Source: Candidatus Dojkabacteria bacterium
GTDB lineage: Bacteria; Patescibacteriota; Dojkabacteria; SC72
Direction of reading: 5' to 3'
NCBI GenBank assembly: GCA_050950145.1
Contig: JBMNHB010000001.1
Location: forward strand, 208,511 to 272,510
DNA: 64,000 bases
The translations under genes and the position numbers were made by a program. The notes under the pieces are model-generated. The model saw only the letters and a list, made by a program, of their open reading frames with translations, ran no database searches and was not told the origin of the DNA. Of the stretch, positions 8,520-53,507 are shown piece by piece; within the stretch, counting starts at the first letter, position 1; each line of letters opens with the position of its first letter.

Positions 8520-9212
8520 ATGAAGTTATTTCAATATGTATATGAGTTTATAGATAGAGTTAAAGCTAGATTTGTTAATAAGTACCAATTTAAGAAAGGT
8601 TATATCACAAAGATAGAGTATGAGTTAAGGAAGGAGTTTTTAAAGTCAGCAGAACAATTTGGAGCAAATAATTTCTATCAAAACTATCCACCACTTAGGA
8701 TTAGTGGCGGACGATCTTCACTCTGTCGATTTAAGGTGTATGAAATGGAAAAGTGGTTGAATAAGGATGTGGAAATATTGGATGTTGGAGGGAATATTGG
8801 TTTCTTTTCTCTGTATTTATCACGTTTTGTTAAATCTATTACTATTGTAGAGCAGAATCATAGGTTACTTAATGTTGGTAGGAAGTTGGCAGATTATGAG
8901 AAGATAGGGAATGTAAAGTTTATTGAGAAAGATTTTAAGAAGTTTACTACAGATAAAAAATTTGATGTTGTTATGAGTTTGGCAATACATAAGTGGGTAG
9001 GTATGGAGTTTGAAGATTATCTAAAGAAGATACACGGTTTGTTAAAGAAGGGTGGTTTAGTGTTAATGGAGAGTCATTTGATATATGGGAAGACAGGGGA
9101 TTTGATTAAAGACAAGTTGAGTAAATCTAAGTTATTTGAAATTGTTGAAAAAGGAGCAATAGATGATCATGAGGGTAATTATAGGGAGTTTTATTGGATT
9201 AGGGTGAGGTAG
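8520..9212 (+). CDS. FkbM-family SAM-dependent methyltransferase
   Basis: ILDVGGNIGFFSLYLS matches the FkbM DxGANxGxxS motif. Confidence 0.6.
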   Translation: MKLFQYVYEFIDRVKARFVNKYQFKKGYITKIEYELRKEFLKSAEQFGANNFYQNYPPLRISGGRSSLCRFKVYEMEKWLNKDVEILDVGGNIGFFSLYLSRFVKSITIVEQNHRLLNVGRKLADYEKIGNVKFIEKDFKKFTTDKKFDVVMSLAIHKWVGMEFEDYLKKIHGLLKKGGLVLMESHLIYGKTGDLIKDKLSKSKLFEIVEKGAIDDHEGNYREFYWIRVR

Positions 9213-9237: not shown

Positions 9238-10299
9238 TTAATGCCTCTTGATAAATGTTCTCAGCTTTTTCCTAATACTTAGTGGAATAATCCTTCTTCT
9301 TATTTTCTCCCAACGAGTTTCATTTTTAATACTTTCAATCTTTCTACCCTCACCATCTTTAATAATATCGTAATTGATTTCTTTTCCTTCAATGAGAGTT
9401 GTTATTATATTGTAATACTTCTCATCACTTATCATATTGTAGATATCATAATCTTTGGGTGTTATTTGTTTTAAAATCTGCAACCCAATATAGGCATAAT
9501 ACAAACCATTTTCTTGGAAAGTTAGTAAGAATCCTGTAATGTACTTTTTAATTTTAGAATAATTTCCTTTAAGAGTTTTTTCTAGAGAGTCTATATATTT
9601 GTCATACATAAGAAGTATTTCTGCTTTCATTCTAATGGTGTTTGTAGTAGTTTCATTAAGACCATGCCATCTGTAATAAGTTAGGATATCACCACACCTT
9701 CCTATTTTAATATGTGGTAACATCTTTATCCAAAGTTCAAGATCATAGGCTGTAATAAGTTTAGTACTGAACATTCCATATTGCTCAAACAAAATCTTTT
9801 TTAACATTACAGCAGATTTACAAAGATAGTTACCATTAAAAAACTTGAACTCTATATCTGGTCCGAATATTTTTTCAGGATCAAATGTATTCCACCAGAG
9901 ATTAAAAAACTTGTCATTAGAATTTTTACCCTCAGCATCTACAGCAGATACTTTTGTAGTGACTAAGTCATACCCTTTTTCTAACATTTGTACCTGTTTT
10001 TCCAGTTTTTTGGGGTGATAGAAGTCATCTGCATCTAGAAAACAAATATAGTCGCCTTTAGCCAGTTTAAATGCCTTATTAAGTGTTTTTGTCACTCCTT
10101 GATTAGTTTGTGTATATAGACGAATTCTTTTATTTTTAGTATATGGCTTTATTATATTAACCGAGTTATCTGACGAGCCATCATCAATAATTATTAACTC
10201 CCAATTTGCATAGGTTTGTTTTAACACTGAGTTGATTGCAACTTCAATGTATCTCTCATAATTATATGATGGTAATAAAATACTTACTTTTTTGGTCAT
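9238..10299 (-). CDS. GT2 glycosyltransferase
   Basis: ILLPSYNYERYIEVAINSVLKQTY...IIIDDGSSDNS...FLDADD. The C-terminal basic amphipathic tail is discussed in the findings. Confidence 0.75.
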   Translation of the reverse strand: MTKKVSILLPSYNYERYIEVAINSVLKQTYANWELIIIDDGSSDNSVNIIKPYTKNKRIRLYTQTNQGVTKTLNKAFKLAKGDYICFLDADDFYHPKKLEKQVQMLEKGYDLVTTKVSAVDAEGKNSNDKFFNLWWNTFDPEKIFGPDIEFKFFNGNYLCKSAVMLKKILFEQYGMFSTKLITAYDLELWIKMLPHIKIGRCGDILTYYRWHGLNETTTNTIRMKAEILLMYDKYIDSLEKTLKGNYSKIKKYITGFLLTFQENGLYYAYIGLQILKQITPKDYDIYNMISDEKYYNIITTLIEGKEINYDIIKDGEGRKIESIKNETRWEKIRRRIIPLSIRKKLRTFIKRH

Positions 10300-11573: not shown

Positions 11574-13535
11574 ATGAAAAAAGAAATTATAAGAGGAAGG
11601 AAATACTCATGGAAATTCGTTTTATTGATAGTAACTCCTGTGTTGTTATTTCTTCTTTCCTTATTACTTTCTAAGTATTTTCTACTTATTCGTATAATCT
11701 CTCTGATTCTTGTTTTCTTAGTTATAGGTATGAGTTTTGCAAAGTTTTTTAAGGAAACATTTAAGTATGAGAACCAACTTGATTTTATAATAAACTCCTT
11801 AGTCCTTGGAAGTTTCCTTAGTGTTTTCCTTCTTCTGATGTTGGGAATGATAGGAGTTGTCTATACCGATACTTTGTTAATTATCTTCTTCTCTGTTTTA
11901 TCTGTAACTAGCCTCTTGTATACTATTTTGAGTAAAAAAGATAGTGACTTAGAGAAATTTTTTGATAAAAGAATTCAATTATTAGACATCTTATGGGCTC
12001 TTCTTTTTCTTCTCTTGTTTTATCTTCTTATCCAAATATGCTTAGAACAATTTTTCCCTCATTGGGATAGCTTTACTTTCTGGGCAGTAGATTCAAAGTA
12101 CTTGTTTGAAAATATGCGACTTAGGGATGCGACATTTGATTTACTGGGTAATTTCTCTTACTCCTCTTTTTATCCTCTTTATTCTTTTCTAATTTACAAG
12201 GTTTTGGGAGGGATATACGAACAATTTGCAAGTATTATTACTGTTTATTTTGCTTTCCTTTCTTGTCTCCTTGTTTTCAAAAGAATCTATAAACAACCTT
12301 CTAAGAGACTTAAGTCTTTTCAATATCTTTTCTTACTACTTGTTCCTATTATTTTTCTTTCAATACAAAATATAATAGTAACTCTGTATGTAGATATCTT
12401 CTGTTCATTTTTAGTTCTTCTTTTTACAGCTGTTTTGTTGCAGTCGAGGGTAACTGTAGATGAATATTATAAGAGGCTTTTTCTTCTTTCAGTTATTGCG
12501 ATAGGTTTGTATCTTGCTAAGAGTCCGTATATGGTTGTCACCATATTTTTGTTATTAGTTTTTATTCTGTACGATATTAAATATTGGATTAAGAATTTTC
12601 AGCAACTAAAGAAAAAATATAGAGTAGTTCTTGTGATTATTGTTCTCTCTCTTTTCTTTATTATTCAACAAAAATATATTTCACAGTTCTGGGATGCAGG
12701 TGTTGCAGAAGTTACGAGTAAAATTACACGTATAGCATCATTGAAAGAGTATGTTTTACATATAGATAGCATACTAAAACTTATAATAGAAATTGCACCT
12801 TACATATCTTTTTTGTATATAGCTTTCTTTTGTTTTCTAACTTTTGGTTCTTTTAAAGCATCAAGAAAGACTAAGTACTTTTTAATTATATTAGTTCTTG
12901 GTACTCTTTTTTTACCAATTTTCTTTTATGTAATAAGATTGCGTAGTCTTACAAGTAAGAGTCTATTAAGATATATGGGAATAAGTTTTTTTGCTTGTTC
13001 TTACGCTTTCACTTATATGCGAATTAGAAGTTCTAAGAATAAAGAGATATTATACAATATCTTATTTGTATTATTTACTATACTTGCAGGACTATTTCTT
13101 CTTTCTCAAATTTATTTAAAATACAATCTTAACTTTAAGCTTGAACCTCACAGTGGTAGATATAAGGATTCTAGTGGTCACAAAAGTCTTTATGAGATTG
13201 TTGAAGGAGTTGAAGGATATTTATCTGAAGATTCTAAGGTGTTGATTATTGATCAGGAAAAGAAGGGACTTGGGAATATGGCGGTACCAGCAATCTGTGT
13301 ACGCTACTATCTTTCCAATTTTTCTACTGGAGGACAATATTCAGCATCACACAACAGAATAGGTAGTGTGATAAAGAAATCTGATGCCGATTATATATTA
13401 CTTCTAATATATGATGGTTATTGGTCACACTGTCCTGATCTTTTACTTGGAGAGACTTATTTGATTAAGAAAGAGGATTTAAACTTCTCTAATACTTGTC
13501 CTGTTGAAAACATTACTCATATTATTACTCCTTAG
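11574..13535 (+). CDS. Large polytopic membrane protein (more than 12 TM), putative GT-C-type glycosyltransferase or polymerase
   Basis: Extensive hydrophobic helices over 653 aa. Sits within the glycan locus. No specific family motif recognised. Confidence 0.45.
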   Translation: MKKEIIRGRKYSWKFVLLIVTPVLLFLLSLLLSKYFLLIRIISLILVFLVIGMSFAKFFKETFKYENQLDFIINSLVLGSFLSVFLLLMLGMIGVVYTDTLLIIFFSVLSVTSLLYTILSKKDSDLEKFFDKRIQLLDILWALLFLLLFYLLIQICLEQFFPHWDSFTFWAVDSKYLFENMRLRDATFDLLGNFSYSSFYPLYSFLIYKVLGGIYEQFASIITVYFAFLSCLLVFKRIYKQPSKRLKSFQYLFLLLVPIIFLSIQNIIVTLYVDIFCSFLVLLFTAVLLQSRVTVDEYYKRLFLLSVIAIGLYLAKSPYMVVTIFLLLVFILYDIKYWIKNFQQLKKKYRVVLVIIVLSLFFIIQQKYISQFWDAGVAEVTSKITRIASLKEYVLHIDSILKLIIEIAPYISFLYIAFFCFLTFGSFKASRKTKYFLIILVLGTLFLPIFFYVIRLRSLTSKSLLRYMGISFFACSYAFTYMRIRSSKNKEILYNILFVLFTILAGLFLLSQIYLKYNLNFKLEPHSGRYKDSSGHKSLYEIVEGVEGYLSEDSKVLIIDQEKKGLGNMAVPAICVRYYLSNFSTGGQYSASHNRIGSVIKKSDADYILLLIYDGYWSHCPDLLLGETYLIKKEDLNFSNTCPVENITHIITP

Positions 13536-13614: not shown

Positions 13615-15012
13615 ATGTTTAGTAAAGGAAATAACAAAGGTAGAGAAATTAGTTGGGAAAGAGTATTGTTAATTTTAATATTTCTTAGTTTCTTACTTCA
13701 AACGCTTTTCTTTATTTTCTATCTTTCACAGTATTTTGGTCCAGATGAGGCATATCATTATAATGTCTCTATTGCATATTCAAAAGTGTTTGGAATCCCC
13801 AAAAATTCTTCAGAGACTTTCTTGTATGGTGATATAACAAGGATTCCTTTTCTTTTCTATTGGTTGAGTGGAAGATTTATAAACATTGCTAATATTCTTA
13901 AGATAGACTCTTTCATATTACTTAGATTTTTGAGTTTGTTGTATTCTCTTGTTACTATGTTTTTTGTGTGGTTAATTAGTAAAGATGTTATTAAGGAGAA
14001 ATATTATAGAGTTCTTCCCGTCTTTATGCTTGCAAATACAATGATGTTTAGTTTTTTAGGTGGAGTGGTGACTTATGATACTTTGGTGAATTTGTTTCTT
14101 GTAATATCCTTTTGGTCGTTATTGCTTTATCTAAAACAAGATAGTAAATGTACAAAGTATTTACTAATTTGGATTGCTACTTCTTTGTTAGCATGTGCAA
14201 CTAAATTTCCTGCATTACCATTTGTGTTTTTAGGATTTGTAGTGATTCTTTTTTTTGTGTGTAAAAACAAGATTAAATTTTGGAAAGAATTATCAAACCC
14301 AAAGATTATTTTTCCTATAATTTTTATATGCTTTTTCATCTTAATTAACTTTTACATATATGGAATCAATATTTTAAGGTATAAAAGGGTAACACCTGTT
14401 TGTAATCAGGTTATGCAACATGAAGAATGTTTGAACAACGCTATTTACAGAAGATCCTTTGTGTATGAGGAAACAGGTATTCAGTCAAGGGAAGGAAAGA
14501 GGATAAGAGATCTACTATTAACTGATGAGCGAATGAATCCATTTGATTTTTTCTTTGATTGGGAGGCTAGTATATCTCCTCGTTTATATGGGATTTTTTC
14601 CCATAGTTCAATTACTTTTCCTCGTAATTTCTCTTTTGTTTATACATTAGTGTTTCTTCTGCTTATGATACCGTTTATTAGATATATAAAGAAATCAGAT
14701 AAACAGATAGTTGTTGCATTCTTTTTAGTGCTAGGTTATGTATTAGTTTTAGCCTTTTTCCAACATTATTATTGGTATTTGAAGATGAACAGATTAAATA
14801 TCGCGATGCAGGGTAGGTATCTTCTTCCTGTAATACCAGCAGCTTATTTGATTGAAGTGTGGTCTTTGACAAAGATAAGAAATGATAGGTTTAAGAAATT
14901 AATCTTAATAGTGATTTTATTAATCTTCTTATGTGGTAATGTTTTTATATTTACCAAATCTATTATCTATGGAGGGGCTGAGTGGTATCCTAATTTATTT
15001 AATTCTATCTAG
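13615..15012 (+). CDS. GT-C fold membrane glycosyltransferase (PMT_2/ArnT-like, lipid-carrier dependent)
   Basis: YFGPDEAYHYNVS lies in the first external loop and resembles the DE motif of GT39/GT83-type enzymes. Multiple TM helices. Confidence 0.5.
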   Translation: MFSKGNNKGREISWERVLLILIFLSFLLQTLFFIFYLSQYFGPDEAYHYNVSIAYSKVFGIPKNSSETFLYGDITRIPFLFYWLSGRFINIANILKIDSFILLRFLSLLYSLVTMFFVWLISKDVIKEKYYRVLPVFMLANTMMFSFLGGVVTYDTLVNLFLVISFWSLLLYLKQDSKCTKYLLIWIATSLLACATKFPALPFVFLGFVVILFFVCKNKIKFWKELSNPKIIFPIIFICFFILINFYIYGINILRYKRVTPVCNQVMQHEECLNNAIYRRSFVYEETGIQSREGKRIRDLLLTDERMNPFDFFFDWEASISPRLYGIFSHSSITFPRNFSFVYTLVFLLLMIPFIRYIKKSDKQIVVAFFLVLGYVLVLAFFQHYYWYLKMNRLNIAMQGRYLLPVIPAAYLIEVWSLTKIRNDRFKKLILIVILLIFLCGNVFIFTKSIIYGGAEWYPNLFNSI

Positions 15013-16718
15013 CGATTTTCCACTCTTCCTTTTGTGTATCTATCAATAAAATGTCTTAGTTTCCTTTTGAGTTTTCTATAAATCGTTAACATCTTCCATA
15101 TTTTCCCTTTTTTAAACCCTTTGAATTCGTTGGATATTGCAATATGAGTAAGGAGATGCCGATTATTGGTTAAAAGATGTTGATATGTATTTTTATCTAA
15201 TACACCTTTGTTAATAATCTCAGAAAGAAAAGTGACATAACTATAATTCCAATGTGTTCTATCTTCTTTCAGTACGGTATTACCTCCGTGATATGATATC
15301 CCAGCGAAACTAATCTTTGTACTTATATTATCGTAATGAGGTATTGTTAAAAGTGATATGGCATAATCTTCATAATAATCTCCTTGAAGTTTGGAACTTT
15401 CAAAAACATCTTTCAAGATTTCTGTTTTGTATATTACAGAACATATAGGAAGGAAATTGTTTCCAGTAATGATTTCCTCAGCCAAATTCGAAGAGTATGT
15501 TTCCTGTACTTTTGATTTCATAGGAATCTCTGATAGGTTGTCCCATTTTTCATTAAATACTACAGAGTTCCCAATAATAATTTCATTTTTATAAAGTAGG
15601 TATGGTAAGTGTTTTGCTATGTCTGGAAATACAAAGTCATCATAATCTACAATCCAAGAGTATGAATTTGGATTTATAGAATAACAATGATTTACTGCAT
15701 TGACTAGTGCAGCAACGCGTGGGTATCTCCCATTAGTATTGTCTAAATAAATATCAGTAATGCTAATTGTTGAAAATTCTTTCTTGATTCTTTGCACAAA
15801 AGGAGTAATTTCTTTCTTTGAGATGTTATTTATCGATAGTACTACATTGATTTGAATGTTTTTAGGTAAATCTGATTGAAGAGTATTTATTGAACGAAGT
15901 AACCTAATAATTTTAGAAGATTCTCTATGCATTCTTACAATAATATTTAGCCTCCCACTTTTTTCTTTGAAAATATCTTTTATTAGGTTGTCAACAATAG
16001 TTTCAAAACTCTTTTTTGTTCTTTTTCTGGAAGAAAGGTCTTCATAATCCTGGAATATAGGGATATTATCGTTAATGGAAGTAATTGTGTGGTTGGAAAA
16101 ACTTTCTCTAAAGTAATTTTGAATATCTTTTTCTTTGATAGCCTTTTTAAATGCTTTGTAGTTACCACTGCTAGAATGTATTACATATAGCCAAGGAGAA
16201 ATAAGACATGCTAATCCCTTTTTGTATGATTCCGAGCAAAGGATTAAATCGTAAAGATGATAACCTTTTATTTCTTTAGGAAGAGATATTTCTTTTTCTC
16301 GTAAGCTTTTAATATTTAGAAGAAGGGTGTTTCCATCAAGACTTTCTGCTATTACAGGATTCTTGTATTTAGGTGGTAAGTATGTCGTATGTGGATCAGA
16401 TAAAAGGGTATGTATATTCTTAGATAGATACTCTACACCTGCATTTCCTATTACGCCCCAATTTTCTTCTCCAATGTAACTATTGACACTGTTAATACAG
16501 TTTGCAACATTAGTATCAATAGTTTCTGGTAATATCACATCATCGTGGCAGATTAAAGCGTAGTCACTCTTGCACTCTTTTATGATTTGATTAATAAAAG
16601 TAAAAAGATCTATTCCCGTTGTTAAAACTGAATGAGGTAGGGAATATTGCTTTTCCTCGTCCCTAATTCTTCTTATAGTTTCCTTATCTCTGCATAGTCT
16701 GTAAGTTTGGTAGGTCAT
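15009..16718 (-). CDS. Hypothetical glycan-locus protein (possible GT-A-like) with a conserved basic C-terminal helix
   Basis: ICHDDVILPETID is DXD-like. The C-terminal FKGFKKGKIWKMLTIYRKLKRK motif is shared with neighbouring enzymes. Confidence 0.4.
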   Translation of the reverse strand: MTYQTYRLCRDKETIRRIRDEEKQYSLPHSVLTTGIDLFTFINQIIKECKSDYALICHDDVILPETIDTNVANCINSVNSYIGEENWGVIGNAGVEYLSKNIHTLLSDPHTTYLPPKYKNPVIAESLDGNTLLLNIKSLREKEISLPKEIKGYHLYDLILCSESYKKGLACLISPWLYVIHSSSGNYKAFKKAIKEKDIQNYFRESFSNHTITSINDNIPIFQDYEDLSSRKRTKKSFETIVDNLIKDIFKEKSGRLNIIVRMHRESSKIIRLLRSINTLQSDLPKNIQINVVLSINNISKKEITPFVQRIKKEFSTISITDIYLDNTNGRYPRVAALVNAVNHCYSINPNSYSWIVDYDDFVFPDIAKHLPYLLYKNEIIIGNSVVFNEKWDNLSEIPMKSKVQETYSSNLAEEIITGNNFLPICSVIYKTEILKDVFESSKLQGDYYEDYAISLLTIPHYDNISTKISFAGISYHGGNTVLKEDRTHWNYSYVTFLSEIINKGVLDKNTYQHLLTNNRHLLTHIAISNEFKGFKKGKIWKMLTIYRKLKRKLRHFIDRYTKGRVENR

Positions 16719-16720
16719 TT

Positions 16721-17602
16721 TTATTTTGGATGTTCTGAAAATTTATTATATCCATAAATTTTTATTCTTTCATTACAATATGTGGGAACCATAATTCTTT
16801 CTGGCTCGTTTTTATTCATCAATTCTTCAAAATTCTCAATTGCTTTATTTCTAAATTCTTTAGGATAAGAGGTTTTACTTATCCATTCCTTTGCTTTTTT
16901 AACACCTTTCGCTCCAAAGTATATGTAAGATATGTATAAGAAATTCCTCATACTCCAGAAATCTTCTATTTCGTACGAGTTTTGATTATATCTAAAGTAT
17001 ATACCTGTGTAGTGGTATACTACTGCTCTTGGATTTTGTACAACCTTGTACTCATTAATCCAAGCTTTCCAACTTAAATCTACATCTTCTAAGTACATCC
17101 AGTAATTTGGATCAAAACCATTTACTTTTTCAAAGAAAAGACTATTAATTAGTAAACAACATCCTGAAGCCCAATTTGTTTCAAAAGTTTCTTCTTTTGG
17201 GGTGTCTTTAGGATGTGTAAAAGGTAATTGTCGTGCCTCCACTAACGCTACATCCTTTTTAAAAGAACTTACTAATTCTTTCAAACAATTCTTATCCATA
17301 TAAATATCAGGGTTGATTATTAGAAAGAATTTATGTGGCTTTGTTTTGTAAAATGCAAAGTTATGAGATTCTCCAAATCCTAATGCTTTGTTAGGATATA
17401 AAATATTTATATCGAGTTTATTACTTTTGATATCCTCTTTAGAGAAAGTTTTCTTTCCAGTGTAATCAACAAGAGTTAAGAGTATTTTGTTTCTAATAGT
17501 TTGTTTTTCTAAAGAAGGAATTAACAAATTGTTTACCTCTTTGAGTCTTGACTTTGAGGCAGAACAGAATATATGTATAGTATTATTATCAGCCCTTTTC
17601 AT
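16721..17602 (-). CDS. Putative GT-A-type glycosyltransferase
   Basis: FLIINPDIYMD... region. Adjacent to the preceding ORF (2-nt gap), in an operon with other GT/MTase genes. Confidence 0.4.
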   Translation of the reverse strand: MKRADNNTIHIFCSASKSRLKEVNNLLIPSLEKQTIRNKILLTLVDYTGKKTFSKEDIKSNKLDINILYPNKALGFGESHNFAFYKTKPHKFFLIINPDIYMDKNCLKELVSSFKKDVALVEARQLPFTHPKDTPKEETFETNWASGCCLLINSLFFEKVNGFDPNYWMYLEDVDLSWKAWINEYKVVQNPRAVVYHYTGIYFRYNQNSYEIEDFWSMRNFLYISYIYFGAKGVKKAKEWISKTSYPKEFRNKAIENFEELMNKNEPERIMVPTYCNERIKIYGYNKFSEHPK

Positions 17603-17663
17603 TTACCTTGTACTTTTTTATAAAATGAAATCAATATAAATTCTCTGTTTTTATTTTAGCACA

Positions 17664-18614
17664 TTATTCTTTTGAATATGGTTCTTTCTTTGTATTTGTA
17701 AATAAGTTTTTAAACTTCCTCCAAATATCTAGAAGTCTCCAAATAACACCTTTCTTAAAGGATCTAAACTCTTCTACTTCACTTTTGTATTCTTCAATCA
17801 GTATATCTTTTTTTTGTATAGCCTTATCTTTTCTTTCTATTATCTTATCTTTTTCTTCAATCATTTTTTCTTTCCCTCTTAGTGTTTTATGTGTTTTAAC
17901 AAGTTCTTTTTGTAGTTCCTTGTTCGAATACTCTAAATCCTGATTCTTTGAAAGAGTTGTATAGTAAAGAAAGAGGTTTTTCTTAATATCTTTAATATTG
18001 TTATTTAAAAATATAACTCCTAAACCATGATAATGTTCGAATGTTATTGTATTTTTATATTTCTTTTTTAACTCATCCCACAACTTATACACACCAAAAT
18101 CATCTTTAGTCTCACACACATCATGGAACATTATAATACCTGTATTTTTATTTACTTTAGGTAACCATGTTTCAAAATCATGTTTAACAGCCTCATATGT
18201 ATGTAAACCATCAATATGTAATATATCTATACTATTATCTTTAAACTTCTTTACAGCATCATTAAAAAGCATCTTATGTGGGATTACCTGTACGTTTTTG
18301 TAATACTCTTGTGATATCCTTAAAAACTCTTCATATACATCTTTACCATAATATCCTGCCTGGGAATCTCCTTCCCATGTATCTACCCCATGTAATTCTG
18401 TTTTAAGTTTTCCGTCTTTTATAGCTTGTGCCATTGAGAAGAGGGAGTTTCCTTTGTGAGTTCCTAGTTCTACTACAACTTTAGGTTTGGCATTTCTAAC
18501 AAGGTCGTATGCAAAGAAATAGTGTCCACTCCATGCAGAAGATATTAGTGGTAAATCTTTTGTAAATTCGAAAGTAGGGGAGTAGTATGTCCATTTGTTT
18601 TTTTCTAAATTCAT
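17664..18614 (-). CDS. Class I SAM-dependent methyltransferase (TylF/CmcI-like) with a C-terminal coiled-coil/basic helix
   Basis: KPKVVVELGTHKGNSLFSMAQAI motif I region. C-terminal FRSFKKGVIWRLLDIWRKFK motif. Confidence 0.5.
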   Translation of the reverse strand: MNLEKNKWTYYSPTFEFTKDLPLISSAWSGHYFFAYDLVRNAKPKVVVELGTHKGNSLFSMAQAIKDGKLKTELHGVDTWEGDSQAGYYGKDVYEEFLRISQEYYKNVQVIPHKMLFNDAVKKFKDNSIDILHIDGLHTYEAVKHDFETWLPKVNKNTGIIMFHDVCETKDDFGVYKLWDELKKKYKNTITFEHYHGLGVIFLNNNIKDIKKNLFLYYTTLSKNQDLEYSNKELQKELVKTHKTLRGKEKMIEEKDKIIERKDKAIQKKDILIEEYKSEVEEFRSFKKGVIWRLLDIWRKFKNLFTNTKKEPYSKE

Positions 18615-18734
18615 TCCTAATTCTATTGTTTTATATCTTTTATTACAAGTTCTTTTCTGTTATTATTTTTATATTAGGTTTGAAATAACTTTTTAAAAGA
18701 AGAAAATAATAGATATCGATACTTATAGACAATA

Positions 18735-19829
18735 ATGGATAAAAAAACAATATACACAATATCTTCTGTGAAAGATGAAGCAGATATTATTGAGAGTCTT
18801 GTTCGTTATACTCTTAATTTTGCAGATGGGATGGTAATAAATGAGAATGGAAGTACAGATAATACATTGGCTATATTAAAACAGTTAAAATCAGAAGGTT
18901 TAAATATAGATATAATAGAAGATACAAAATCAGAGTATGTTGAACTTGAAAAGAAAAAAGAACTCCTAAACTATGTTATGAAGAAATACTCTCCAGATTG
19001 GGTACTATGTTTAGATGCAGACGAGTTTCTCTTTGAGATTGATTATAAAAATCCTAGAAATGCTATTTTATCCTTAAATCCTCTAGAAGAAAATCAAATT
19101 CTATGGAGAACATTTGTTTTGAATGGGGATGAAAAAAAAGAGGAACAATTTATTCCTAAGAGAGTATTGTATAGAAGAGATGAGAGTTGTGAAGAGTTTG
19201 CTAAAGCAGTAATTTCCAAAGAGTTGTATAAAAAGGGCTGTTTATTTAGCTTAGGAGCTCATACTCTTTACGGTTCTGAATTTGCTTCTAAAGTAAACTA
19301 TCCTAAAGATTTATTCTTGGGACACTATCCTGTCAGATCTATCAATCAATTAACGGCAAGAATAATATCTGGGGCACTGAATGTACTTGCACAAGATTCG
19401 CGAGAGTCAGGAAGGAATTTCCATCATTTTGAGATGCTAGATAAAATCATTCAGAATGGTTGTATTGATAAGGAGACCTTATGCAAGGAATCTCTTTATT
19501 ATGCTATTAGTGATAAAAGCATCGACATAAAAAAGGAGTTGAAACCATTGGATGTCTCTTTTTGTAAGGGGTTAGATATGAAGTATTCGCCAAAGGAACC
19601 ACAGAGTTCGCTTAGTATAGCATTATCTATTGGAACAACCTTGATAGAAAAACTAAGGGTGGAAAAGGAAATTTTACATAATGAAAAAGTGTTTTTGGAG
19701 AATGAGCTGTCAAAGAAAGAAAAAGAACTAGAAGAGATAAAAGCTTTGTTTCATAAAACTATTTCTAGTAGAGGATGGATTTTTCTTGAGAAGTTAAGAA
19801 AGATTAAAAGGTGGGTTAAGAAATCTTAA
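18735..19829 (+). CDS. GT2-like glycosyltransferase (Glyco_tranf_2_4-like) with C-terminal coiled coil
   Basis: DWVLCLDADEFL motif, plus a C-terminal heptad-rich region ending in the basic helix RGWIFLEKLRKIKRWVKK. Confidence 0.55.
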   Translation: MDKKTIYTISSVKDEADIIESLVRYTLNFADGMVINENGSTDNTLAILKQLKSEGLNIDIIEDTKSEYVELEKKKELLNYVMKKYSPDWVLCLDADEFLFEIDYKNPRNAILSLNPLEENQILWRTFVLNGDEKKEEQFIPKRVLYRRDESCEEFAKAVISKELYKKGCLFSLGAHTLYGSEFASKVNYPKDLFLGHYPVRSINQLTARIISGALNVLAQDSRESGRNFHHFEMLDKIIQNGCIDKETLCKESLYYAISDKSIDIKKELKPLDVSFCKGLDMKYSPKEPQSSLSIALSIGTTLIEKLRVEKEILHNEKVFLENELSKKEKELEEIKALFHKTISSRGWIFLEKLRKIKRWVKKS

Positions 19830-19946: not shown

Positions 19947-20963
19947 ATGAAAATCCTAGTAACAGGTGGAGCCGGTTTCATAGGCTCAAACTTCATAAAA
20001 TACTGGATGAACAAATATCCAGAAGATAAAATAGTAAACCTAGATTTACTAACATACGCAGGTAATCTAGAAAACCTAAAGGAGGTAGAGAATAATCCAA
20101 ATTATGAATTCGTAAAAGGAGACATATGTGACAAAGACCTAGTAATGGATCTAACCAAAGGTATCGATCTCATTGTACACTTCGCTGCAGAATCACATGT
20201 AGATAGAAGTATAGAAGGACCAGAAGTATTTGTTAAAACAAATGTAATGGGTACACAGAACCTTCTAGAGGCAGCAGTACAAAATGGTGGTATTAGATTC
20301 CATCATGTATCAACAGATGAGGTGTTTGGTGAATTACCGATAGATAAACCAGAATTAAAATTTACAGAAGATATGCCATATGCACCTAGAAGTCCATACT
20401 CTGCATCTAAAGCAGCATCAGACCACTTAGTCAGAGCATACTTCCATACCTTTAAGTTACCAATTACAATCTCTAACACATCAAACAACTATGGACCAAA
20501 TCAATACCCAGAGAAACTAATACCTTTGATTGTAACTAGAGCTATGATGGACCAAGAGATACCAGTATATGGAGATGGTAAACAGATTAGAGACTGGGTA
20601 CATGTATTAGATCATGTACGAGGTATTGAGTTATCAATAAAAGATGGAAAGTTAGGAGAAACATATCTCTTTGGTGGTGATGGTGAAAGAGAGAACATAT
20701 GGATTGTAAAAACAGTATTGGAATATCTTGATAAACCAGAATCACTAATAGTTCATGTAGGAGATAGGAAAGGTCATGATGTAAGGTATGCAATTGATAA
20801 CTCCAAATCAGAGAAAGAATTAGGTTACAAACCAGAAAAGAGTGTAGAAGAGTGGTTAAAGGATACAGTACAGTGGTATGTGGATAACAAGGATTGGTGG
20901 GAACCACTAAAACCAGTAGCAGACAAACAAGCAGAAAGATATTTAGAAAAAAGATTAGATTAA
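19947..20963 (+). CDS. rfbB: dTDP-glucose 4,6-dehydratase
   Basis: MKILVTGGAGFIGSNF Rossmann motif and YSASKAASDH catalytic YxxxK. Length 338 aa. Confidence 0.9.
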   Translation: MKILVTGGAGFIGSNFIKYWMNKYPEDKIVNLDLLTYAGNLENLKEVENNPNYEFVKGDICDKDLVMDLTKGIDLIVHFAAESHVDRSIEGPEVFVKTNVMGTQNLLEAAVQNGGIRFHHVSTDEVFGELPIDKPELKFTEDMPYAPRSPYSASKAASDHLVRAYFHTFKLPITISNTSNNYGPNQYPEKLIPLIVTRAMMDQEIPVYGDGKQIRDWVHVLDHVRGIELSIKDGKLGETYLFGGDGERENIWIVKTVLEYLDKPESLIVHVGDRKGHDVRYAIDNSKSEKELGYKPEKSVEEWLKDTVQWYVDNKDWWEPLKPVADKQAERYLEKRLD

Positions 20964-20982
20964 TTTAACACTCATATATATT

Positions 20983-22071
20983 ATGAAAGCACTCATATTA
21001 GCAGGTGGTAGAGGTACAAGACTTAGACCTCTTACACATACTAAAAACAAACATATGTTACCAATTGGTAACAGACCAATGATAGAAAGAATTATCAAGG
21101 ATGCAGTAGATTTAGGAATTAAAGATATCATCATCAATATCAATAAAGGTGATAAAGAAATGCCTGAACTCTTAGGAGATGGTAAAAGATTTGGTAAGGG
21201 TGTAAAGCTACAATATATTGAACAACCAGAACCAAATGGAATGATGTATCCAATTAAACTAGCTGAGAAGTTAATAGGGGATGACGAATTTCTCTTCTCT
21301 GCTGGTGATAATATTCTAACAGGTGGTCTTAAGAAACATTACGATGATTTCAAAAAGAAGAAATCAGATGCACATGTCTTAGTTGTAAGAAGACCAGACT
21401 ATCAAAACTTTGGTGTTGCTGTTATGAAGGATGATAAGATTGTACATACAGTAGAGAAACCTAAAGAGTTTGTTAGTGATCTAGTTCTCTCTGCAATCTA
21501 CTTCTTTACACCTGCTGTATTTAAAGCATTCGATCATGCTAAACCTATAGATCCAAAGGGTACAGGTAAACCAGAATACTATCCTCCAGTAATTAACAAC
21601 TGGTTGATTGAAAATGGATATACCTTTACAGCATCAGAAGTAACAGGTTGGTGGAAGGATACAGGAGCACCAGAAGACCTCATCTTAGCAAACAGATTAA
21701 TTCTTGAAAGAGAGTGTTTAGATGAGTGTAAGGGTAAGGTAAAGGATAGTCAGGTAGAAGGTAATGTTGAGATAGGGAAGGGTTCTATTGTTAAAAACTC
21801 AGTCTTAAGAGGACCAATATCTATTGCAGAGAATGTTACAGTTGAGAATGCATATATTGGACCGTTCACATCTATTGGAGAAGGTAGTGTAGTTAAAGAT
21901 GCTGAAATAGAGAACAGTATATTGATGGGTAATTGTAATGTGCATAACCTTCATGAGAGATTAGACAGTTCTTTGATTGGTTGGAATGCAGAGGTAACAA
22001 CAAAGGAATCACTTCCTAAGGCAGATACTCTACTTATCGGAGATGATTCTAAAGTGGTATTGGCTAAGTAG
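20983..22071 (+). CDS. rmlA: Sugar-1-phosphate nucleotidyltransferase, long-form glucose-1-phosphate thymidylyltransferase-like (N-terminal NTP-transferase domain plus C-terminal left-handed beta-helix)
   Basis: MKALILAGGRGTRLRPLTHTKNKHMLPIGNRPMI signature. The C-terminal hexapeptide-like repeats are typical of archaeal-type long RmlA. Confidence 0.7.
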   Translation: MKALILAGGRGTRLRPLTHTKNKHMLPIGNRPMIERIIKDAVDLGIKDIIININKGDKEMPELLGDGKRFGKGVKLQYIEQPEPNGMMYPIKLAEKLIGDDEFLFSAGDNILTGGLKKHYDDFKKKKSDAHVLVVRRPDYQNFGVAVMKDDKIVHTVEKPKEFVSDLVLSAIYFFTPAVFKAFDHAKPIDPKGTGKPEYYPPVINNWLIENGYTFTASEVTGWWKDTGAPEDLILANRLILERECLDECKGKVKDSQVEGNVEIGKGSIVKNSVLRGPISIAENVTVENAYIGPFTSIGEGSVVKDAEIENSILMGNCNVHNLHERLDSSLIGWNAEVTTKESLPKADTLLIGDDSKVVLAK

Positions 22072-22109
22072 GATTAATAGTTAATTACAACTTTTGAAAA
22101 AGAAAAAAA

Positions 22110-22159
22110 GTGGGAGGCGTCGCTCAGCACCTCGTAAGTGCAGGGTCGTATTCTCCCTC
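22110..22159 (-). terminator. Orphan intrinsic-terminator-like hairpin, read on the minus strand: GC-rich stem followed by a T7CT5 tract
   Basis: A 50-nt GC-rich island inside a very AT-rich intergenic region. On the minus strand it reads GAGGGAGAATACGACCCTGCACTTACGAGGTGCTGAGCGACGCCTCCCAC followed by TTTTTTTCTTTTTC. GGGAG/CTCCC closes the helix. Confidence 0.4.
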
Positions 22160-22306
22160 ATGATTAGTGTAATTATACCTTCTTTACTAGTCTCCTTCAA
22201 CCTTTTCTTTAATAAATATATTAACTAATAATTAGATAAAATAGTTCATTATCTTGTAGTTAAGAAAGATTGCTAATACACAGTTATTCTGTTATATTCT
22301 ACTAAG

Positions 22307-22888
22307 ATGAGAAGGAATAAAAATAAGCTAAAAAATCTAATAGTTTATATCATTTCCGAATACAATAACTCCAACCTAACAGAGACCAAACTACAAAAAC
22401 TACTCTACTTCTGTGATTTTGAATGCTATGAGATTAGTGGTAAATCAATAACAGGGTTTAAGTACAAGAAAAATCACTATGGTCCAACAATAATAGATTT
22501 AGGAGATTATCTCAAGGAGTTAAAAGAAGAAGGATATATTGAGATTATAGAAGGAGAAACAAGTTATGGTTCTCCTAAAAAAACATTTGCTCTTAAGAAA
22601 AGTATTGGAGATTTTAGAAAGGTGTTCTCAGATCTAGAACTTAAAACAATTGATGATGTAAACAATGCATATGTTGGTCTTAAGCCTACAGAGATAAGTA
22701 AGTTATCTCATTCAGATTTTCCATATCTAGCAACCAATGATAGGAAATATATAGACTATAATTTAGTTAAATATCGTGATACTGAGGAGGCAAATCAGTC
22801 CAAAGAAGACTATTCTGTTTTCTCATCTGGGGAGTTTTCCAACATTGTAGGTAAATTTGCTAAAACTCTTCAGGATAGTGGAAATTAA
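22307..22888 (+). CDS. Panacea-domain (DUF4065, SocA/GepA-like) protein, putative antitoxin
   Basis: TETKLQKLLYFCDFECYEISGKSITGFKYKKNHYGP matches the KLQKLLYxxQ...W..GPV core of DUF4065. Confidence 0.6.
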   Translation: MRRNKNKLKNLIVYIISEYNNSNLTETKLQKLLYFCDFECYEISGKSITGFKYKKNHYGPTIIDLGDYLKELKEEGYIEIIEGETSYGSPKKTFALKKSIGDFRKVFSDLELKTIDDVNNAYVGLKPTEISKLSHSDFPYLATNDRKYIDYNLVKYRDTEEANQSKEDYSVFSSGEFSNIVGKFAKTLQDSGN

Positions 22889-23261
22889 AGACTATGGAAA
22901 CAGTTTAATATCTTCTGATTTAAAGAGGCTTAAAAAACTTAGGTCTTTAGAGAAGGATTTAGAAACTTACTTCATCGCTCACAAGAATACTCTTTTAGAA
23001 AATGGTCTTCTTAGTTGTAAGATTGCAGATGGTAAAACACCAGATGGCTTAATATATTGGGTGTGTAAAGAAAGAGTTATTGTTACCAACCCTAAAACTG
23101 GTGCAAGTGATGGTTGTAGGCTGTGGTTTTTAATCATATTTGAAAGTCCTATGAAAGCTCATTATGTAAAAAGTCTCTTGTATTCTGCTAAGGAGGAAAA
23201 GAAATATCCAAAAGATAAATGTTATCAAATTATAAAGAAGGCTTTGGAGAGCATATTATAG
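22857..23261 (+). CDS. Small protein overlapping the Panacea gene by 32 nt, candidate toxin with a RelE/ParE-like fold
   Basis: Has only non-ATG start options (TTG 22857 or GTG 22878). The C-terminal segment DGCRLWFLIIFESPMKAHYVKSLLY resembles the GDYRLIYRI...HRKEVY core of RelE-family toxins. Confidence 0.35.
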   Translation: MLKLFRIVEIKDYGNSLISSDLKRLKKLRSLEKDLETYFIAHKNTLLENGLLSCKIADGKTPDGLIYWVCKERVIVTNPKTGASDGCRLWFLIIFESPMKAHYVKSLLYSAKEEKKYPKDKCYQIIKKALESIL

Positions 23262-23326
23262 CTACCTTGTTTCTGCCTATGACTCATTTTGATATAATGT
23301 AAAATAAATTCAAACTAATCATACAT

Positions 23327-23902
23327 ATGGAATTTGAAAAAGTAGAACATCTACCGGAATTGGTAGTAGTAACTCTCAAAGCTTTTCATGATGATAGAGG
23401 ATATTTTGAAGAAACATATGATGAAGATAAATTTAGAGAAGCAGGTCTTCCTACAAATTGGGTAAAAGATAATCACTCAAACTCTAAGGAAGGTGTTTTA
23501 AGAGGTATGCATTGGCAGATAGGACCAAATGCACAGGATAAGTTTGTAAGAGTGATTAGAGGTAAAGCAATTGATGTAGCTGTGGATATTAGAAAAGGAT
23601 CTCCTACATTTGGACAATTCCATATGGTTGAATTAACAGAAGATAATCATACAGGATTCTTCATACCTAAAGGTTTTGCTCATGGATTTTTAGCATTAAC
23701 TGACAATGTAGATTTTGAATACAAAGTAAGTGGTAAATATGATAAAGAGAGTGAAAGATCTTTTAGATGGAATGACCCAGATGTAAATATACCATGGGGT
23801 ACAGATACACCAATTCTTTCAGATAAGGATGCTAATGCTCCTTTGCTTGGAGAATTAAGTGATGAAGATATATTTAAACTTAGTGAAATGCTAAATGAAT
23901 AA
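23327..23902 (+). CDS. rfbC: dTDP-4-dehydrorhamnose 3,5-epimerase
   Basis: VLRGMHWQ (RGLHFQ-type) motif and cupin fold. Length 191 aa. Confidence 0.85.
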   Translation: MEFEKVEHLPELVVVTLKAFHDDRGYFEETYDEDKFREAGLPTNWVKDNHSNSKEGVLRGMHWQIGPNAQDKFVRVIRGKAIDVAVDIRKGSPTFGQFHMVELTEDNHTGFFIPKGFAHGFLALTDNVDFEYKVSGKYDKESERSFRWNDPDVNIPWGTDTPILSDKDANAPLLGELSDEDIFKLSEMLNE

Positions 23903-53491: not shown

Positions 53492-53507
53492 ACACTTATT
53501 ACTTAAT

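What the first reader, a model, noticed from the sequence alone, without database searches (positions are those of the whole stretch)
15009..19829. Different enzymes in the glycan locus share a C-terminal basic amphipathic motif, FKKGxIWxxLxIxRKxK
Three neighbouring proteins with unrelated catalytic domains end in near-identical tails:
- 15009-16718: ...FKGFKKGKIWKMLTIYRKLKRKLRHF
- 17664-18614 (SAM-MTase): ...FRSFKKGVIWRLLDIWRKFKNLF
- 18735-19829 (GT2-like): ...RGWIFLEKLRKIKRWVKKS

The GT2 at 9238-10299 ends in a similar basic helix (WEKIRRRIIPLSIRKKLRTFIKRH).

In the two clearest cases the tail follows a coiled-coil-like Lys/Glu-rich segment. A shared short C-terminal module on different enzymes suggests a common membrane-surface anchoring helix, or a docking peptide that gathers the methyltransferase and glycosyltransferases into one complex. 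I do not recognise this as a described motif.
Basis: seen in the sequence. Interest (0 to 1): 0.55.

Follow-up and report, generated by a model that had tools for sequence, protein, structure and literature searches.

The report
Shared C-terminal tail on glycan enzymes
Three neighbouring sugar-chain-building enzymes of a Dojkabacteria (CPR) genome end in the same short tryptophan-containing basic helix, which is a compact local version of the membrane-proximal element that follows the coiled-coil 'ruler' of the E. coli O-antigen terminator WbdD: a known kind of module, here in a new sequence form and on more kinds of enzyme.

Summary
The dual glycosyltransferase A (15009-16718) and the methyltransferase C (17664-18614) share EF..FKKG.IW+.L.I(Y/W)RK.K (13/21 identical, E=9e-6). 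Nothing else in them aligns, and their DNA is only 54% identical. D (18735-19829) carries a related variant, SRGWIFLEKLRK. The GT2 at 9238-10299 is not a member.

A profile of the A/C-type tail finds only 49 representatives among 1.84 billion proteins. The long ones I could annotate are all glycan enzymes: GT2, GT4, GT99, TOD1-like and four methyltransferase types. The motif usually follows a coiled coil. In long fusions it sits between the coiled coil and two GT2 modules.

In homologues the same position holds a continuum of variants ending in SxSW(K/R)xTxP(L/I)R. That exact element sits directly after the coiled coil in E. coli WbdD O8 (aa 308-318) and O9 (aa 592-602), at the start of the published membrane-association and polymerase-recruitment region.

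AlphaFold models show a stalk helix, a Gly hinge and a tail helix. None of the tail-bearing proteins checked has a clear transmembrane segment.

Best reading: a membrane-surface foot that places polymerase-like and terminator-like enzymes at one site. A docking role is not excluded. It is a new variant of a known kind. No ABC transporter lies in the window.

The parts
15009..16718 (-). Protein A, 569 aa: two GT-A glycosyltransferase modules (aa 1-220 and 255-476), then helices 488-503 and 509-537, a hinge at G538, and tail helix 539-568. Polymerase-like.
   Evidence: No Pfam hit. AlphaFold pLDDT 92.3. Foldseek places it among GT-A glycosyltransferases, with full-length matches to two-module polymerases (K4CP 2z86, PmHS2, LARGE1, CHSY). 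65 homologues, mostly WS6/Dojkabacteria metagenome proteins.
15066..15128 (-). Class I tail motif of A, aa 531-551: EFKGFKKGKIWKMLTIYRKLK. The tail continues to the stop codon at 15009-15011.
   Evidence: Class I profile score 50.6 bits (A is one of the sequences the profile was built from). 40 A-family homologues keep EF..FK.G.IW+.L.KYR.
16721..17602 (-). Protein B, 293 aa: single GT-A-like glycosyltransferase with no stalk and no tail. It lies between A and C, and this gene order recurs in relatives.
   Evidence: Weak Glyco_transf_7C hit. B-A adjacency in L018 and L019, with a tail-bearing gene just upstream; B next to a C homologue in L020. Relatives P0036 and P0037 have an MTase-family N-terminal part and end like B, without a tail, so they look like MTase-B fusions.
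18009..18614 (-). Catalytic domain of protein C (aa 1-202): SAM-dependent O-methyltransferase. Candidate chain terminator.
   Evidence: Pfam Methyltransf_24, E=1.3e-25. AlphaFold pLDDT 93. Best Foldseek match is the M. hassiacum sugar O-methyltransferase MeT1, 6g80.
17754..17993 (-). Stalk of C: a single 80-residue Lys/Glu-rich helix (aa 208-287), a putative coiled coil.
   Evidence: AlphaFold secondary structure. Weak coiled-coil Pfam hits. In homologues the spacer from the end of the methyltransferase domain to the tail is mostly 53-134 aa (median 85, a few outliers), while the tail stays about 21 aa from the C-terminus.
17709..17771 (-). Class I tail motif of C, aa 282-302: EFRSFKKGVIWRLLDIWRKFK. 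The hinge is at K288-G289 and the tail helix is aa 290-306 (17697-17747).
   Evidence: Class I profile score 48.5 bits (C is one of the sequences the profile was built from).
18735..19829 (+). Protein D, 364 aa: GT-A glycosyltransferase (Glyco_tranf_2_4) followed by a coiled-coil-like segment (about 19623-19766) and a tail.
   Evidence: Pfam PF13704, E=2.5e-13. Homologue P0186 is 100% identical and lies on a 748,838-bp contig named Candidatus Dojkabacteria bacterium. C and D homologues are again divergent neighbours in L001.
19767..19826 (+). Tail of D, aa 345-364: SRGWIFLEKLRKIKRWVKKS. This is the S-x-x-W variant, the closest in the window to the WbdD element.
   Evidence: Class II/D-type profile built without it: 9.5 bits, E=0.005. 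D-family tails are SRGWKILEKIRKIKR and SISWKITKPIR. More distant D homologues lack both stalk and tail.
9241..9324 (-). C-terminal basic helix of the GT2 at 9238-10299 (NETRWEKIRRRIIPLSIRKKLRTFIKRH). Listed only to exclude it: it is not a member of the motif.
   Evidence: Scores -1.7 and -0.6 bits with the two tail profiles. muH is 0.37, not above shuffles.

Best explanation
The tail is the Dojkabacteria version of the membrane-proximal 'foot' that follows the coiled-coil stalk of WbdD-type glycan chain terminators.

Anatomy: the last turns of a helix (E-F-x-x-F-K), a helix-breaking Gly (Ser in other lineages), then a 17-30-residue basic helix. That helix has one hydrophobic stripe (I, L, Y/W, I) flanked by a near-invariant Trp and Arg.

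Proposed mechanism: the hinge lets the tail helix lie flat on the cytoplasmic face of the membrane. This pins otherwise soluble enzymes next to the polyprenol-linked glycan they build.

The enzymes differ in how far their catalytic domain is held from the foot:
- A, the polymerase-like dual GT-A protein, sits close to it.
- C, the O-methyltransferase, sits at the end of an 80-residue stalk. By the helix rise of 1.5 A per residue that is about 12 nm.
- D sits on a shorter stalk.

By analogy with WbdD, the stalk would act as a ruler, so that a capping enzyme reaches only chains of a certain length.

Shown here: the motif, its spread over unrelated enzymes, its position after coiled coils, its sequence relationship to the WbdD element, the hinge-helix models, and the lack of clear transmembrane segments.

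Inferred: membrane binding, chain termination by C, and the ruler function.
For: 1. Specific and not compositional. A and C align only in the tail (E=9e-6). The class I profile finds only 49 representatives at E<=1e-3 among 1.84e9 proteins.

2. Modular, and confined to glycan enzymes as far as I could annotate. The same tail sits on Methyltransf_24, _11, _23, FkbM+GT4, GT4, GT2+GT4, GT99, TOD1-like and dual GT-A proteins. It usually follows a coiled coil. In long fusions it lies between the coiled coil and GT2 modules (P0219, P0240, P0249 with two; P0247 with GT99 N-terminal and one GT2). That is the layout of K. pneumoniae O7 ORF6 and O12 WbbB as described in PMC11231755.

3. Same slot, graded variants. 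In the C, A and D families the position holds EF.SFKKGKIWK.L.KYRK, SSKFWKLREKY or SKSWKLTQPIR.

4. The WbdD link. WbdD O8 has SRSWRITQPLR at aa 308-318 and WbdD O9 has SRSWRMTKGYR at aa 592-602, directly after the coiled coil. It is the only such hit among 12 cluster proteins. A profile built only from the session's metagenome-derived tails (no E. coli sequence) finds both at 18.6-18.7 bits, E=7e-6. hhalign of class I against class II plus WbdD gives 70.6% probability, E=3.9e-5, with W and R in register.

5. Literature on WbdD. [quoted passage not shown] The coiled coil is a ruler (PMC5082667).

6. Structure. AlphaFold gives stalk, break at K288-G289 and helix 290-306 in C, and a break at G538 followed by helix 539-568 in A, with pLDDT of about 72-95 over these tail regions.

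7. Amphipathicity. muH is 0.63-0.68 with net charge +5 to +7 for A and C, p<=0.013.

8. No clear transmembrane segment: 0 of 72 family members and 1 borderline case of 22 representatives.

9. Stalk length is mostly 53-134 aa while the tail stays terminal.

10. Tails in one operon need not match: L019 has a class II partner with a class I A, and the apparent co-resident pairs P0032/P0172 and P0027/P0179 do the same. Co-resident tails are no more alike than random pairs. This fits independent anchoring.
Against: - No experiment or multimer model bears on membrane binding.
- Seven positions are near-invariant (E, F, F, K, W, L, R) across unrelated enzymes. That is more residue-specific than generic membrane-targeting helices usually are, and it could mean a protein partner.
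- In WbdD O9 the strongest amphipathic stretch (aa 614-637) lies about 20 residues downstream of the conserved element. What is conserved from E. coli to CPR is therefore the junction, not demonstrably the anchor.
- D's tail is not significantly amphipathic.
- No Wzm/Wzt ABC transporter lies in the 64-kb window, and a related locus has a Wzx-type flippase. The terminator/ruler pathway context known from E. coli is not established here.
- The class I to class II link rests on a short profile-profile match (70.6%) plus positional equivalence.
Confidence: 0.55

Rival explanations
1. Docking or assembly code. The tail, with the last turns of the preceding helix, is a protein-protein interaction element. 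Either the tails of the polymerase-like A and the stalked enzymes C and D bundle together at the base of the coiled coil, or all bind one common membrane protein. In this reading the motif itself assembles the polymerase-terminator complex, and membrane contact is secondary.
For: - Near-invariant residues across unrelated enzymes. Identity between families (51%) is as high as within families (52-57%).
- The WbdD C-terminal region recruits the polymerase WbdA (PMC3482155, PMC11231755).
- In WbdD the conserved element lies upstream of the main amphipathic helix.
- A carries the motif after a 29-residue helix that could join a stalk base.
- Related loci mostly hold two tail-bearing proteins, commonly an A homologue plus a stalked protein.
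Against: - Co-resident A and C tails are not more alike than random pairs.
- Class I and class II tails coexist in one operon (L019, and the apparent pairs P0032/P0172 and P0027/P0179).
- E. coli WbdA, the recruited polymerase, has no such motif, so recruitment in the model system is not motif-to-motif.
- No candidate partner was identified.
- The conserved residues lie where an interfacial helix would put them: Trp and Arg at the edge of the hydrophobic stripe (wheel).
Confidence: 0.25
2. Ligand-binding helix. The basic, Trp-containing helix recognises the pyrophosphate-polyprenol end of the lipid-linked glycan, or a specific anionic lipid, rather than the bilayer in general.
For: - High net positive charge with a conserved Arg and Trp.
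- Every annotated carrier is an enzyme acting in glycan assembly.
Against: No direct evidence of any kind. The same features are explained by general binding to an anionic membrane.
Confidence: 0.1
3. Chance resemblance or low-complexity Lys-rich ends in an AT-rich genome, or a DNA cassette recently copied between neighbouring genes.
For: The genome has about 30% G+C and Lys-rich proteins. The GT2 at 9238-10299 shows that basic C-terminal helices occur without the motif.
Against: - Composition-adjusted BLASTP gives E=9e-6.
- The pattern has 0.05 expected hits in shuffled window ORFs against 3 seen, all C-terminal.
- Only 49 representatives in 1.84e9 proteins match, and every one I could annotate is a glycan enzyme.
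- The motif is conserved in 40 A-family and 32 C-family homologues at 24-80% overall identity.
- The tail DNA is only 54% identical.
Confidence: 0.02

Closest known systems
C-terminal region of E. coli / K. pneumoniae WbdD (O8, O9/O9a, O3, O5), the chain terminator with a coiled-coil molecular ruler
   Same: - Order of parts: N-terminal capping enzyme (a methyltransferase in O8), a long coiled coil, then a C-terminal membrane-proximal region.
- Directly after the coiled coil sits S-R-S-W-R-x-T-x-x-(L/Y)-R. This shares the W-(K/R)-x4-hydrophobic-R core with the tails of A, C and D, and it is almost identical to the SKSWKLTQPIR tails of C-family homologues.
- The stalk is variable in length.
   Different: - WbdD continues for about 110 more residues, and its strongest amphipathic helix lies downstream of the element. 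The Dojkabacteria tails end 16-31 residues after the Trp.
- Class I has its own upstream signature, E-F-x-x-F-K-x-G, in place of I-x-x-S-x-S.
- Here the polymerase-like enzyme also carries the tail, whereas E. coli WbdA does not.
- The methyltransferase fold family differs: Methyltransf_24 here, and the RefSeq record names O8 WbdD only as a class I SAM-dependent methyltransferase; I did not scan WbdD's catalytic domain.
- No Wzm/Wzt genes lie nearby.
Single-polypeptide terminator-ruler-polymerase proteins: K. pneumoniae O12 WbbB and O7 ORF6 (PMC11231755)
   Same: Relatives P0219, P0240, P0247 and P0249 have an N-terminal domain (GT99-like in P0247), a coiled coil, then GT2 modules. The class I motif sits exactly at the junction between coiled coil and polymerase modules.
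   Different: In the window these functions are on separate proteins, each with its own tail.
C-terminal amphipathic membrane-targeting helices of peripheral enzymes, such as KpsC (PMC10148158) and MinD/FtsA-type targeting sequences (the latter from my own knowledge)
   Same: A short, basic, amphipathic helix at the C-terminus of an otherwise soluble protein that works at the cytoplasmic membrane face.
   Different: Those helices are defined by physical chemistry with little sequence conservation. This one has seven near-invariant positions, a defined hinge, and a fixed relation to a preceding helix.

Membership tests
WbdD-type coiled-coil chain terminator (molecular ruler) system | N-terminal chain-capping enzyme domain (methyltransferase, kinase, or Kdo transferase) | tested here: met
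   C has Methyltransf_24, E=1.3e-25. Its best fold match is the sugar O-methyltransferase MeT1. Only the presence of the domain is shown. Capping activity was not tested.
WbdD-type coiled-coil chain terminator (molecular ruler) system | Extended coiled coil between the catalytic domain and the C-terminal region, with length variable between homologues | tested here: met
   AlphaFold gives a single 80-residue helix, aa 208-287, at pLDDT >90. The spacer is mostly 53-134 aa in homologues. Oligomeric state was not tested.
WbdD-type coiled-coil chain terminator (molecular ruler) system | Post-coiled-coil element S-x-S-W-(R/K)-x-T-x-x-hydrophobic-R, as found here in WbdD O8 and O9 | tested here: inconclusive
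   D scores 9.5 bits, E=0.005, with a profile that finds WbdD at 18.6-18.7 bits. A and C (class I) are linked only by profile-profile comparison (70.6%, E=3.9e-5), by occupying the same position in orthologues, and by the shared W-(K/R)-x4-hydrophobic-R core.
WbdD-type coiled-coil chain terminator (molecular ruler) system | C-terminal region associates with the cytoplasmic membrane | not testable with these tools
   Indirect evidence only: amphipathicity of A and C, hinge plus helix models, no clear transmembrane segments.
WbdD-type coiled-coil chain terminator (molecular ruler) system | C-terminal region recruits the polymerase | not testable with these tools
   No multimer prediction or interaction assay was available. 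Here the polymerase-like A carries its own tail.
WbdD-type coiled-coil chain terminator (molecular ruler) system | Works with a Wzm/Wzt ABC transporter encoded in the locus | tested here: not met
   I scanned 44 of the window's ORFs of 120 aa or more against Pfam and found no ABC transporter. Related locus L001 has a Wzx-type Polysacc_synt gene. An ABC_tran gene lies at the edge of L006. The transporter could be elsewhere in the 748-kb contig.
Generic C-terminal amphipathic membrane-targeting helix | Terminal helix with a significant hydrophobic moment and net positive charge on a protein without transmembrane segments | tested here: met
   Met for A and C (muH 0.68 and 0.63, p<=0.013, charge +7 and +5). 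Not significant for D (0.39). No clear transmembrane segments.
Any curated protein family or solved structure covering the tail | A match to a Pfam-A or NCBIfam model, or to a PDB chain, over the tail | tested here: not met
   No model covers the tail in A, C, D, their homologues or WbdD. The PDB sequence searches with both tail profiles give only chance hits at E>1.

The most novel reading that the evidence does not exclude
The conserved element (helix end, hinge, Trp-Arg helix) may be a universal assembly code, shared from E. coli WbdD to CPR bacteria, rather than merely an anchor. Any enzyme carrying it would be recruited to the base of a coiled-coil ruler. A polymerase such as A and one or more capping or decorating enzymes on stalks of different length, such as C and D, would then form one machine. 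The geometry of that machine would set glycan length and end-group. Shuffling this 25-residue tag onto new catalytic domains would be how these lineages evolve new glycans.
Probability: 0.25. Interest if true: 0.7.

Novelty: new variant of a known kind. Interest (0 to 1): 0.5.

Why it matters
Coiled-coil rulers are the accepted way that ABC-transporter-type pathways set the length of surface glycans. But the membrane-proximal end of the ruler has been described only as a region, not as a sequence element, and no structure of it exists.

This work gives that region a recognisable signature: a hinge followed by W-(K/R)-x4-hydrophobic-R. The signature links E. coli WbdD to proteins from candidate-phyla-radiation bacteria. 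It also appears as a portable tag on about ten kinds of glycan enzyme, including polymerase-like ones.

This has three practical uses:
- It offers a sequence handle for finding terminator, ruler and polymerase sets in unannotated genomes.
- It suggests that Dojkabacteria, whose envelopes are essentially unstudied, control the length of a rhamnose-containing glycan in a WbdD-like way.
- It defines a short peptide on which anchoring and docking can be tested separately.

Tried and rejected
1. Recent DNA duplication between neighbouring genes: rejected. The tail DNA is 54% identical.
2. Within-genome concerted evolution of tails: tested on 4 apparent co-resident A/C pairs against all A x C pairs. 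No excess similarity.
3. The GT2 at 9238-10299 as a fourth member: rejected.
4. A curated family or structure for the tail: none in Pfam, NCBIfam or PDB. PF28159, listed for P0034, is not in the local Pfam copy, so I could not identify it.
5. Literature search for the motif spelled out (SWRxT, WRxTxP and similar): the explicit spellings SWRxT, WRxTxP and SWRxTxPLR do not occur at all, and the top-ranked papers shown were irrelevant matches inside ordinary words.
6. Key WbdD papers could not be read because they are not held: Clarke 2009 PMC2781620, Hagelueken 2015 PMC4650267, Liston 2015 PMC4294475. The statement that residues 601-669 of O9a WbdD carry membrane association is from my memory only.
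A degenerate DNA scan of GTDB genomes was used instead and gave 7 true and 7 chance hits.
8. tblastn of the WbdD element against plasmids returned only WbdD O8 itself. A DNA search for O9 wbdD using the O8 tail found only O8. O9 was reached through wbdC.
9. Search for a Wzm/Wzt transporter in the window: none among the 44 ORFs scanned.
10. The ~320-aa stalk-plus-tail proteins without a Pfam domain (P0215, P0235, P0236, P0238, P0242, L006:6229-7167, L008:7929-8873) stayed unassigned. One of them, P0246, has a weak ABC1 kinase-like hit.

Full report
**What is in the sequence.** The window has about 30% G+C. D has a 100% identical counterpart on a 748,838-bp contig named Candidatus Dojkabacteria bacterium, a member of the candidate phyla radiation.

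The region 15009-19829 holds four genes:
- A (15009-16718, -, 569 aa)
- B (16721-17602, -, 293 aa)
- C (17664-18614, -, 316 aa)
- D (18735-19829, +, 364 aa)

Around them lie:
- the dTDP-rhamnose genes (19947-24785)
- several GT2 and GT4 glycosyltransferases
- two further methyltransferases
- a Bac_transf initiating transferase (36950-37642)
- a GT2 with predicted membrane-spanning C-terminal segments (5716-6693; hydrophobic 19-mer at aa 248)
- an LPG_synthase_TM protein (6693-7652)
- two large polytopic membrane proteins (11574-13535 and 13615-15012; the latter has a weak DUF2142 hit)

**Checking the observation.** A and C share EF(K/R)xFKKGxIW(K/R)xLxI(Y/W)RKxK at aa 531-551 and 282-302.
- BLASTP finds this as the only significant similarity between them: 13/21 identical, E=9e-6 with composition adjustment.
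- The underlying DNA is only 54% identical.
- A loose pattern written after seeing the tails hits only A, C and D among 67 window ORFs, always near the C-terminus, against 0.05 expected.

D's tail, SRGWIFLEKLRKIKRWVKKS, is a different variant, not a near-identical copy. The GT2 at 9238-10299 does not carry the motif.

**What the carrier proteins are.**
- C is a Methyltransf_24 O-methyltransferase. Its fold is closest to the mycobacterial sugar O-methyltransferase MeT1. AlphaFold (pLDDT 93) gives a catalytic domain at aa 1-202, one uninterrupted 80-residue helix at 208-287, a break at K288-G289, and a tail helix at 290-306.
- A has no Pfam hit. AlphaFold models it confidently (pLDDT 92.3) as two GT-A modules followed by helices 488-503 and 509-537, a break at G538 and a tail helix at 539-568. 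Its top Foldseek hits are GT-A glycosyltransferases, and the matches spanning its full length are two-module polymerases such as E. coli K4 chondroitin polymerase.
- D is a Glyco_tranf_2_4 glycosyltransferase with a shorter coiled-coil-like segment before its tail.
- None of the three has a transmembrane segment.

**The tail in homologues.** The 120 listed homologues of C include MTase-only proteins of about 200-260 aa and truncated or fusion proteins that lack the tail. The others carry a variable-length coiled coil and then, in the same terminal slot, one of a graded series:
- EEFRSFKKGKIWKxLxKYRKIKKK, which I call class I. It is carried by the closest relatives of C, several of them annotated as Dojkabacteria.
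- SKSWKLTQPIRExxKxxR, class II.
- SSKFWKLREKYxxLK.
- SAKFFKLWQxYCKIRD.

The other two families show the same spectrum:
- In the A family, 40 of 65 members carry class I. A few carry SSKFWKLRELY, and the two most distant carry SVSWRMTRPLR.
- The D family has S(K/R)GW(K/R)xLExxRKIKR, and one member has SISWKITKPIR. More distant D homologues lack both stalk and tail.

The tail is therefore a module that is gained, lost and varied independently of the catalytic domain.

Class I tails are as similar between the A and C families (51% identity) as within each family (52-57%). E, F, F, K, W, L and R are near-invariant.

**How specific is class I?** A 35-column profile of 64 tails was searched against 1.84 billion representative proteins. 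It found 49 at E<=1e-3. Of these 49, 21 are short fragments of under 190 aa that I did not annotate, and 6 were already among the A- and C-family homologues. The longer ones that could be annotated carry:
- Methyltransf_11
- Methyltransf_23
- FkbM methyltransferase plus GT4
- GT4
- GT2 plus GT4
- GT99, the WbbB-type Kdo-transferase family
- a TOD1/MUCI70-like domain
- the A-type dual GT

Eight representatives of about 320-340 aa had no Pfam domain; for five of them I saw no upstream coiled-coil signal (weak Pfam hit or K/E-rich flank).

The motif usually follows a coiled coil. In the long fusions P0219, P0240 and P0249 it is internal, lying between the coiled coil and two GT2 modules. P0247 is similar, with a GT99-like N-terminal domain and one GT2 module.

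A degenerate DNA scan of one genome per GTDB species gave 7 genuine hits. They lie in Dojkabacteria MAGs or in short contigs binned elsewhere. Class I is thus a rare, lineage-restricted form confined to glycan-assembly enzymes as far as annotation reaches.

**The link to a studied system.** I remembered an SxSWRxTxPLR element from O-antigen proteins and treated that memory as a lead to test. I fetched the O8 and O9 clusters from E. coli genomes.
- WbdD O8 (425 aa) reads ...QQMADLHN-SRSWRITQPLR-WLSLQRQLLRQ... at aa 308-318.
- The 708-aa O9-family WbdD reads ...EIEKIHR-SRSWRMTKGYR-YLGLQIHLLRQ... at aa 592-602.

In both cases the element lies directly after the coiled coil. It is the best-conserved stretch of the two C-terminal regions, and it is the only pattern hit among the 12 cluster proteins.

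It then recovers the window's D (9.5 bits, E=0.005) and nothing else. Profile-profile comparison of class I with class II plus WbdD gives 70.6% probability, E=3.9e-5, with Trp and Arg in register. The shared core is W-(K/R)-x4-(Y/L/I/W)-R, preceded by a helix breaker: Gly in class I, Ser-x-Ser elsewhere.

**What is known about that region.** WbdD consists of N-terminal capping enzymes, a coiled coil that acts as a molecular ruler for O-antigen length, and a C-terminal region. [quoted passage not shown] So the membrane determinants probably begin at about the end of the element.

My own scan puts the strongest amphipathic stretch of the O9 protein at aa 614-637, about 20 residues downstream of the element. 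In the Dojkabacteria tails the hydrophobic-moment maximum overlaps the second half of the motif and the 10-20 basic residues after it. The junction and the amphipathic helix seem to be merged there into one short helix.

**Mechanism proposed.** The tail is a hinge-plus-foot. The Gly or Ser break ends the stalk. The next helix has a hydrophobic stripe (I, L, Y/W, I), Trp and Arg at the stripe's edge and lysines on the other face (wheel). I propose that it lies on the cytoplasmic membrane surface.

This would place soluble enzymes next to the lipid-linked glycan. The polymerase-like A would be close to the membrane. The methyltransferase C would be held about 12 nm away (80 residues at 1.5 A rise per residue, my arithmetic), and D at an intermediate distance. 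That arrangement reproduces the WbdD logic of polymerase plus ruler-mounted capping enzyme.

Supporting observations:
- Stalk length is mostly 53-134 residues, with the tail fixed near the C-terminus.
- No tail-bearing protein has a clear transmembrane segment.
- The gene order [stalk-and-tail gene]-B-A recurs in L018 and, with a truncated first gene, L019; in L020 B follows the C homologue; the divergent C/D pair recurs in L001.
- Class I and class II tails occur together in one operon.

Membrane binding, capping by C and the ruler function are all inferred.

**Caveats and the main rival.** The degree of residue-specific conservation, and the fact that WbdD's conserved element lies upstream of its main amphipathic helix, leave room for a docking role. 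That could be assembly at the base of the stalk, or binding to a common partner.

Two results speak against a simple tail-to-tail code: E. coli WbdA lacks the motif, and co-resident tails are not matched. A common partner is not excluded.

The pathway context is also incomplete. No ABC transporter is encoded in the window. One related locus has a Wzx-type gene, and another has an ABC ATPase at its edge.

**Comparison and novelty.** No Pfam or NCBIfam model and no PDB chain covers the tail. I found no paper that spells the element out. Several key WbdD papers were not readable here, so I cannot exclude that the O8/O9 similarity was noted there.

The functional module, a membrane-proximal region at the foot of a coiled-coil ruler, is known. 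Four things are new:
- a sequence signature for it
- its conservation from E. coli to CPR bacteria
- a distinct Dojkabacteria form
- its presence as a portable tag on many enzyme types, including a polymerase-like protein

I rate it a new variant of a known kind, with interest 0.5.

Noticed in passing
window 22307-23261: A SocA/Panacea-domain antitoxin-like gene (22307-22888, Pfam E=1.7e-17) and an overlapping 134-aa ORF sit between rmlA (20983-22071) and rmlC (23327-23902). In related locus L008 a NYN-domain gene occupies the same rmlA-rmlC gap. L001, L006 and L007 have no insert there. This may be an insertion hot spot for small toxin-antitoxin or defence genes.
   Followed up: partly
window 7665-8456 (-) and 8520-9212 (+): A 263-aa ORF with a weak RIO1 kinase-like hit (E=0.0011, below the Pfam cutoff) lies next to a Methyltransf_11 protein. 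Together they recall the kinase-plus-methyltransferase pair fused in WbdD O9a (a methyl-phosphate cap), but neither has a stalk or a tail.
   Followed up: no
P0212, P0247; L007:7781-10000: GT99-family domains (the WbbB beta-Kdo-transferase family, known as O-antigen terminators) occur in metagenome proteins related to this locus. P0212 and P0247 carry the class I tail. The L007 protein is fused to a B-like GT directly upstream of an A homologue, and neither tail profile detected a tail in it.
   Followed up: partly
P0036, P0037 (relatives of C and B): These 515-521-aa proteins have an N-terminal part matching the C-type methyltransferase (about 70% of the query covered) and end like B, without stalk or tail, so they look like MTase-B fusions. 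This shows that the module can be lost when the enzyme is tethered another way.
   Followed up: no
L001:8743-9836: The D homologue in this related Dojkabacteria locus is split into two overlapping ORFs (158 and 220 aa). This is probably a frameshift or an assembly error. The tail-bearing half is intact.
   Followed up: no
L018, L019, L020: Contigs carrying genuine class I tails and A/B/C homologues are binned as Saccharibacteria, Caldisericia and Bacillota MAGs. They are short (5-11 kb), so mis-binning of Dojkabacteria contigs seems more likely than transfer between phyla.
   Followed up: no
window 51831-54281 (-): Two DNA methyltransferases (D12-class N6-adenine and N6_N4_Mtase) flank a DUF6996/DUF6997 protein. 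This is a probable restriction-modification or related defence cluster.
   Followed up: no
MTase-only C homologues of about 200-260 aa (P0048, P0049, P0063, P0072; P0038, P0042, P0051, P0052, P0056): Short methyltransferase-only relatives of C end in recurring hydrophobic or aromatic C-termini instead of a stalk and tail...YYSKSxFALxEFxWE... in P0048/P0049/P0063/P0072, and ...HYY(I/V/L)xS(L/I)KLFF... in P0038/P0051/P0052/P0056 (P0042 is looser). These may be an alternative anchor.
   Followed up: no
P0034: The precomputed annotation lists PF28159.1 on this C homologue, which has NQNKE(L/V)T repeats in its stalk. That accession is not in the local Pfam copy, so I could not establish what it models.
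   Followed up: partly
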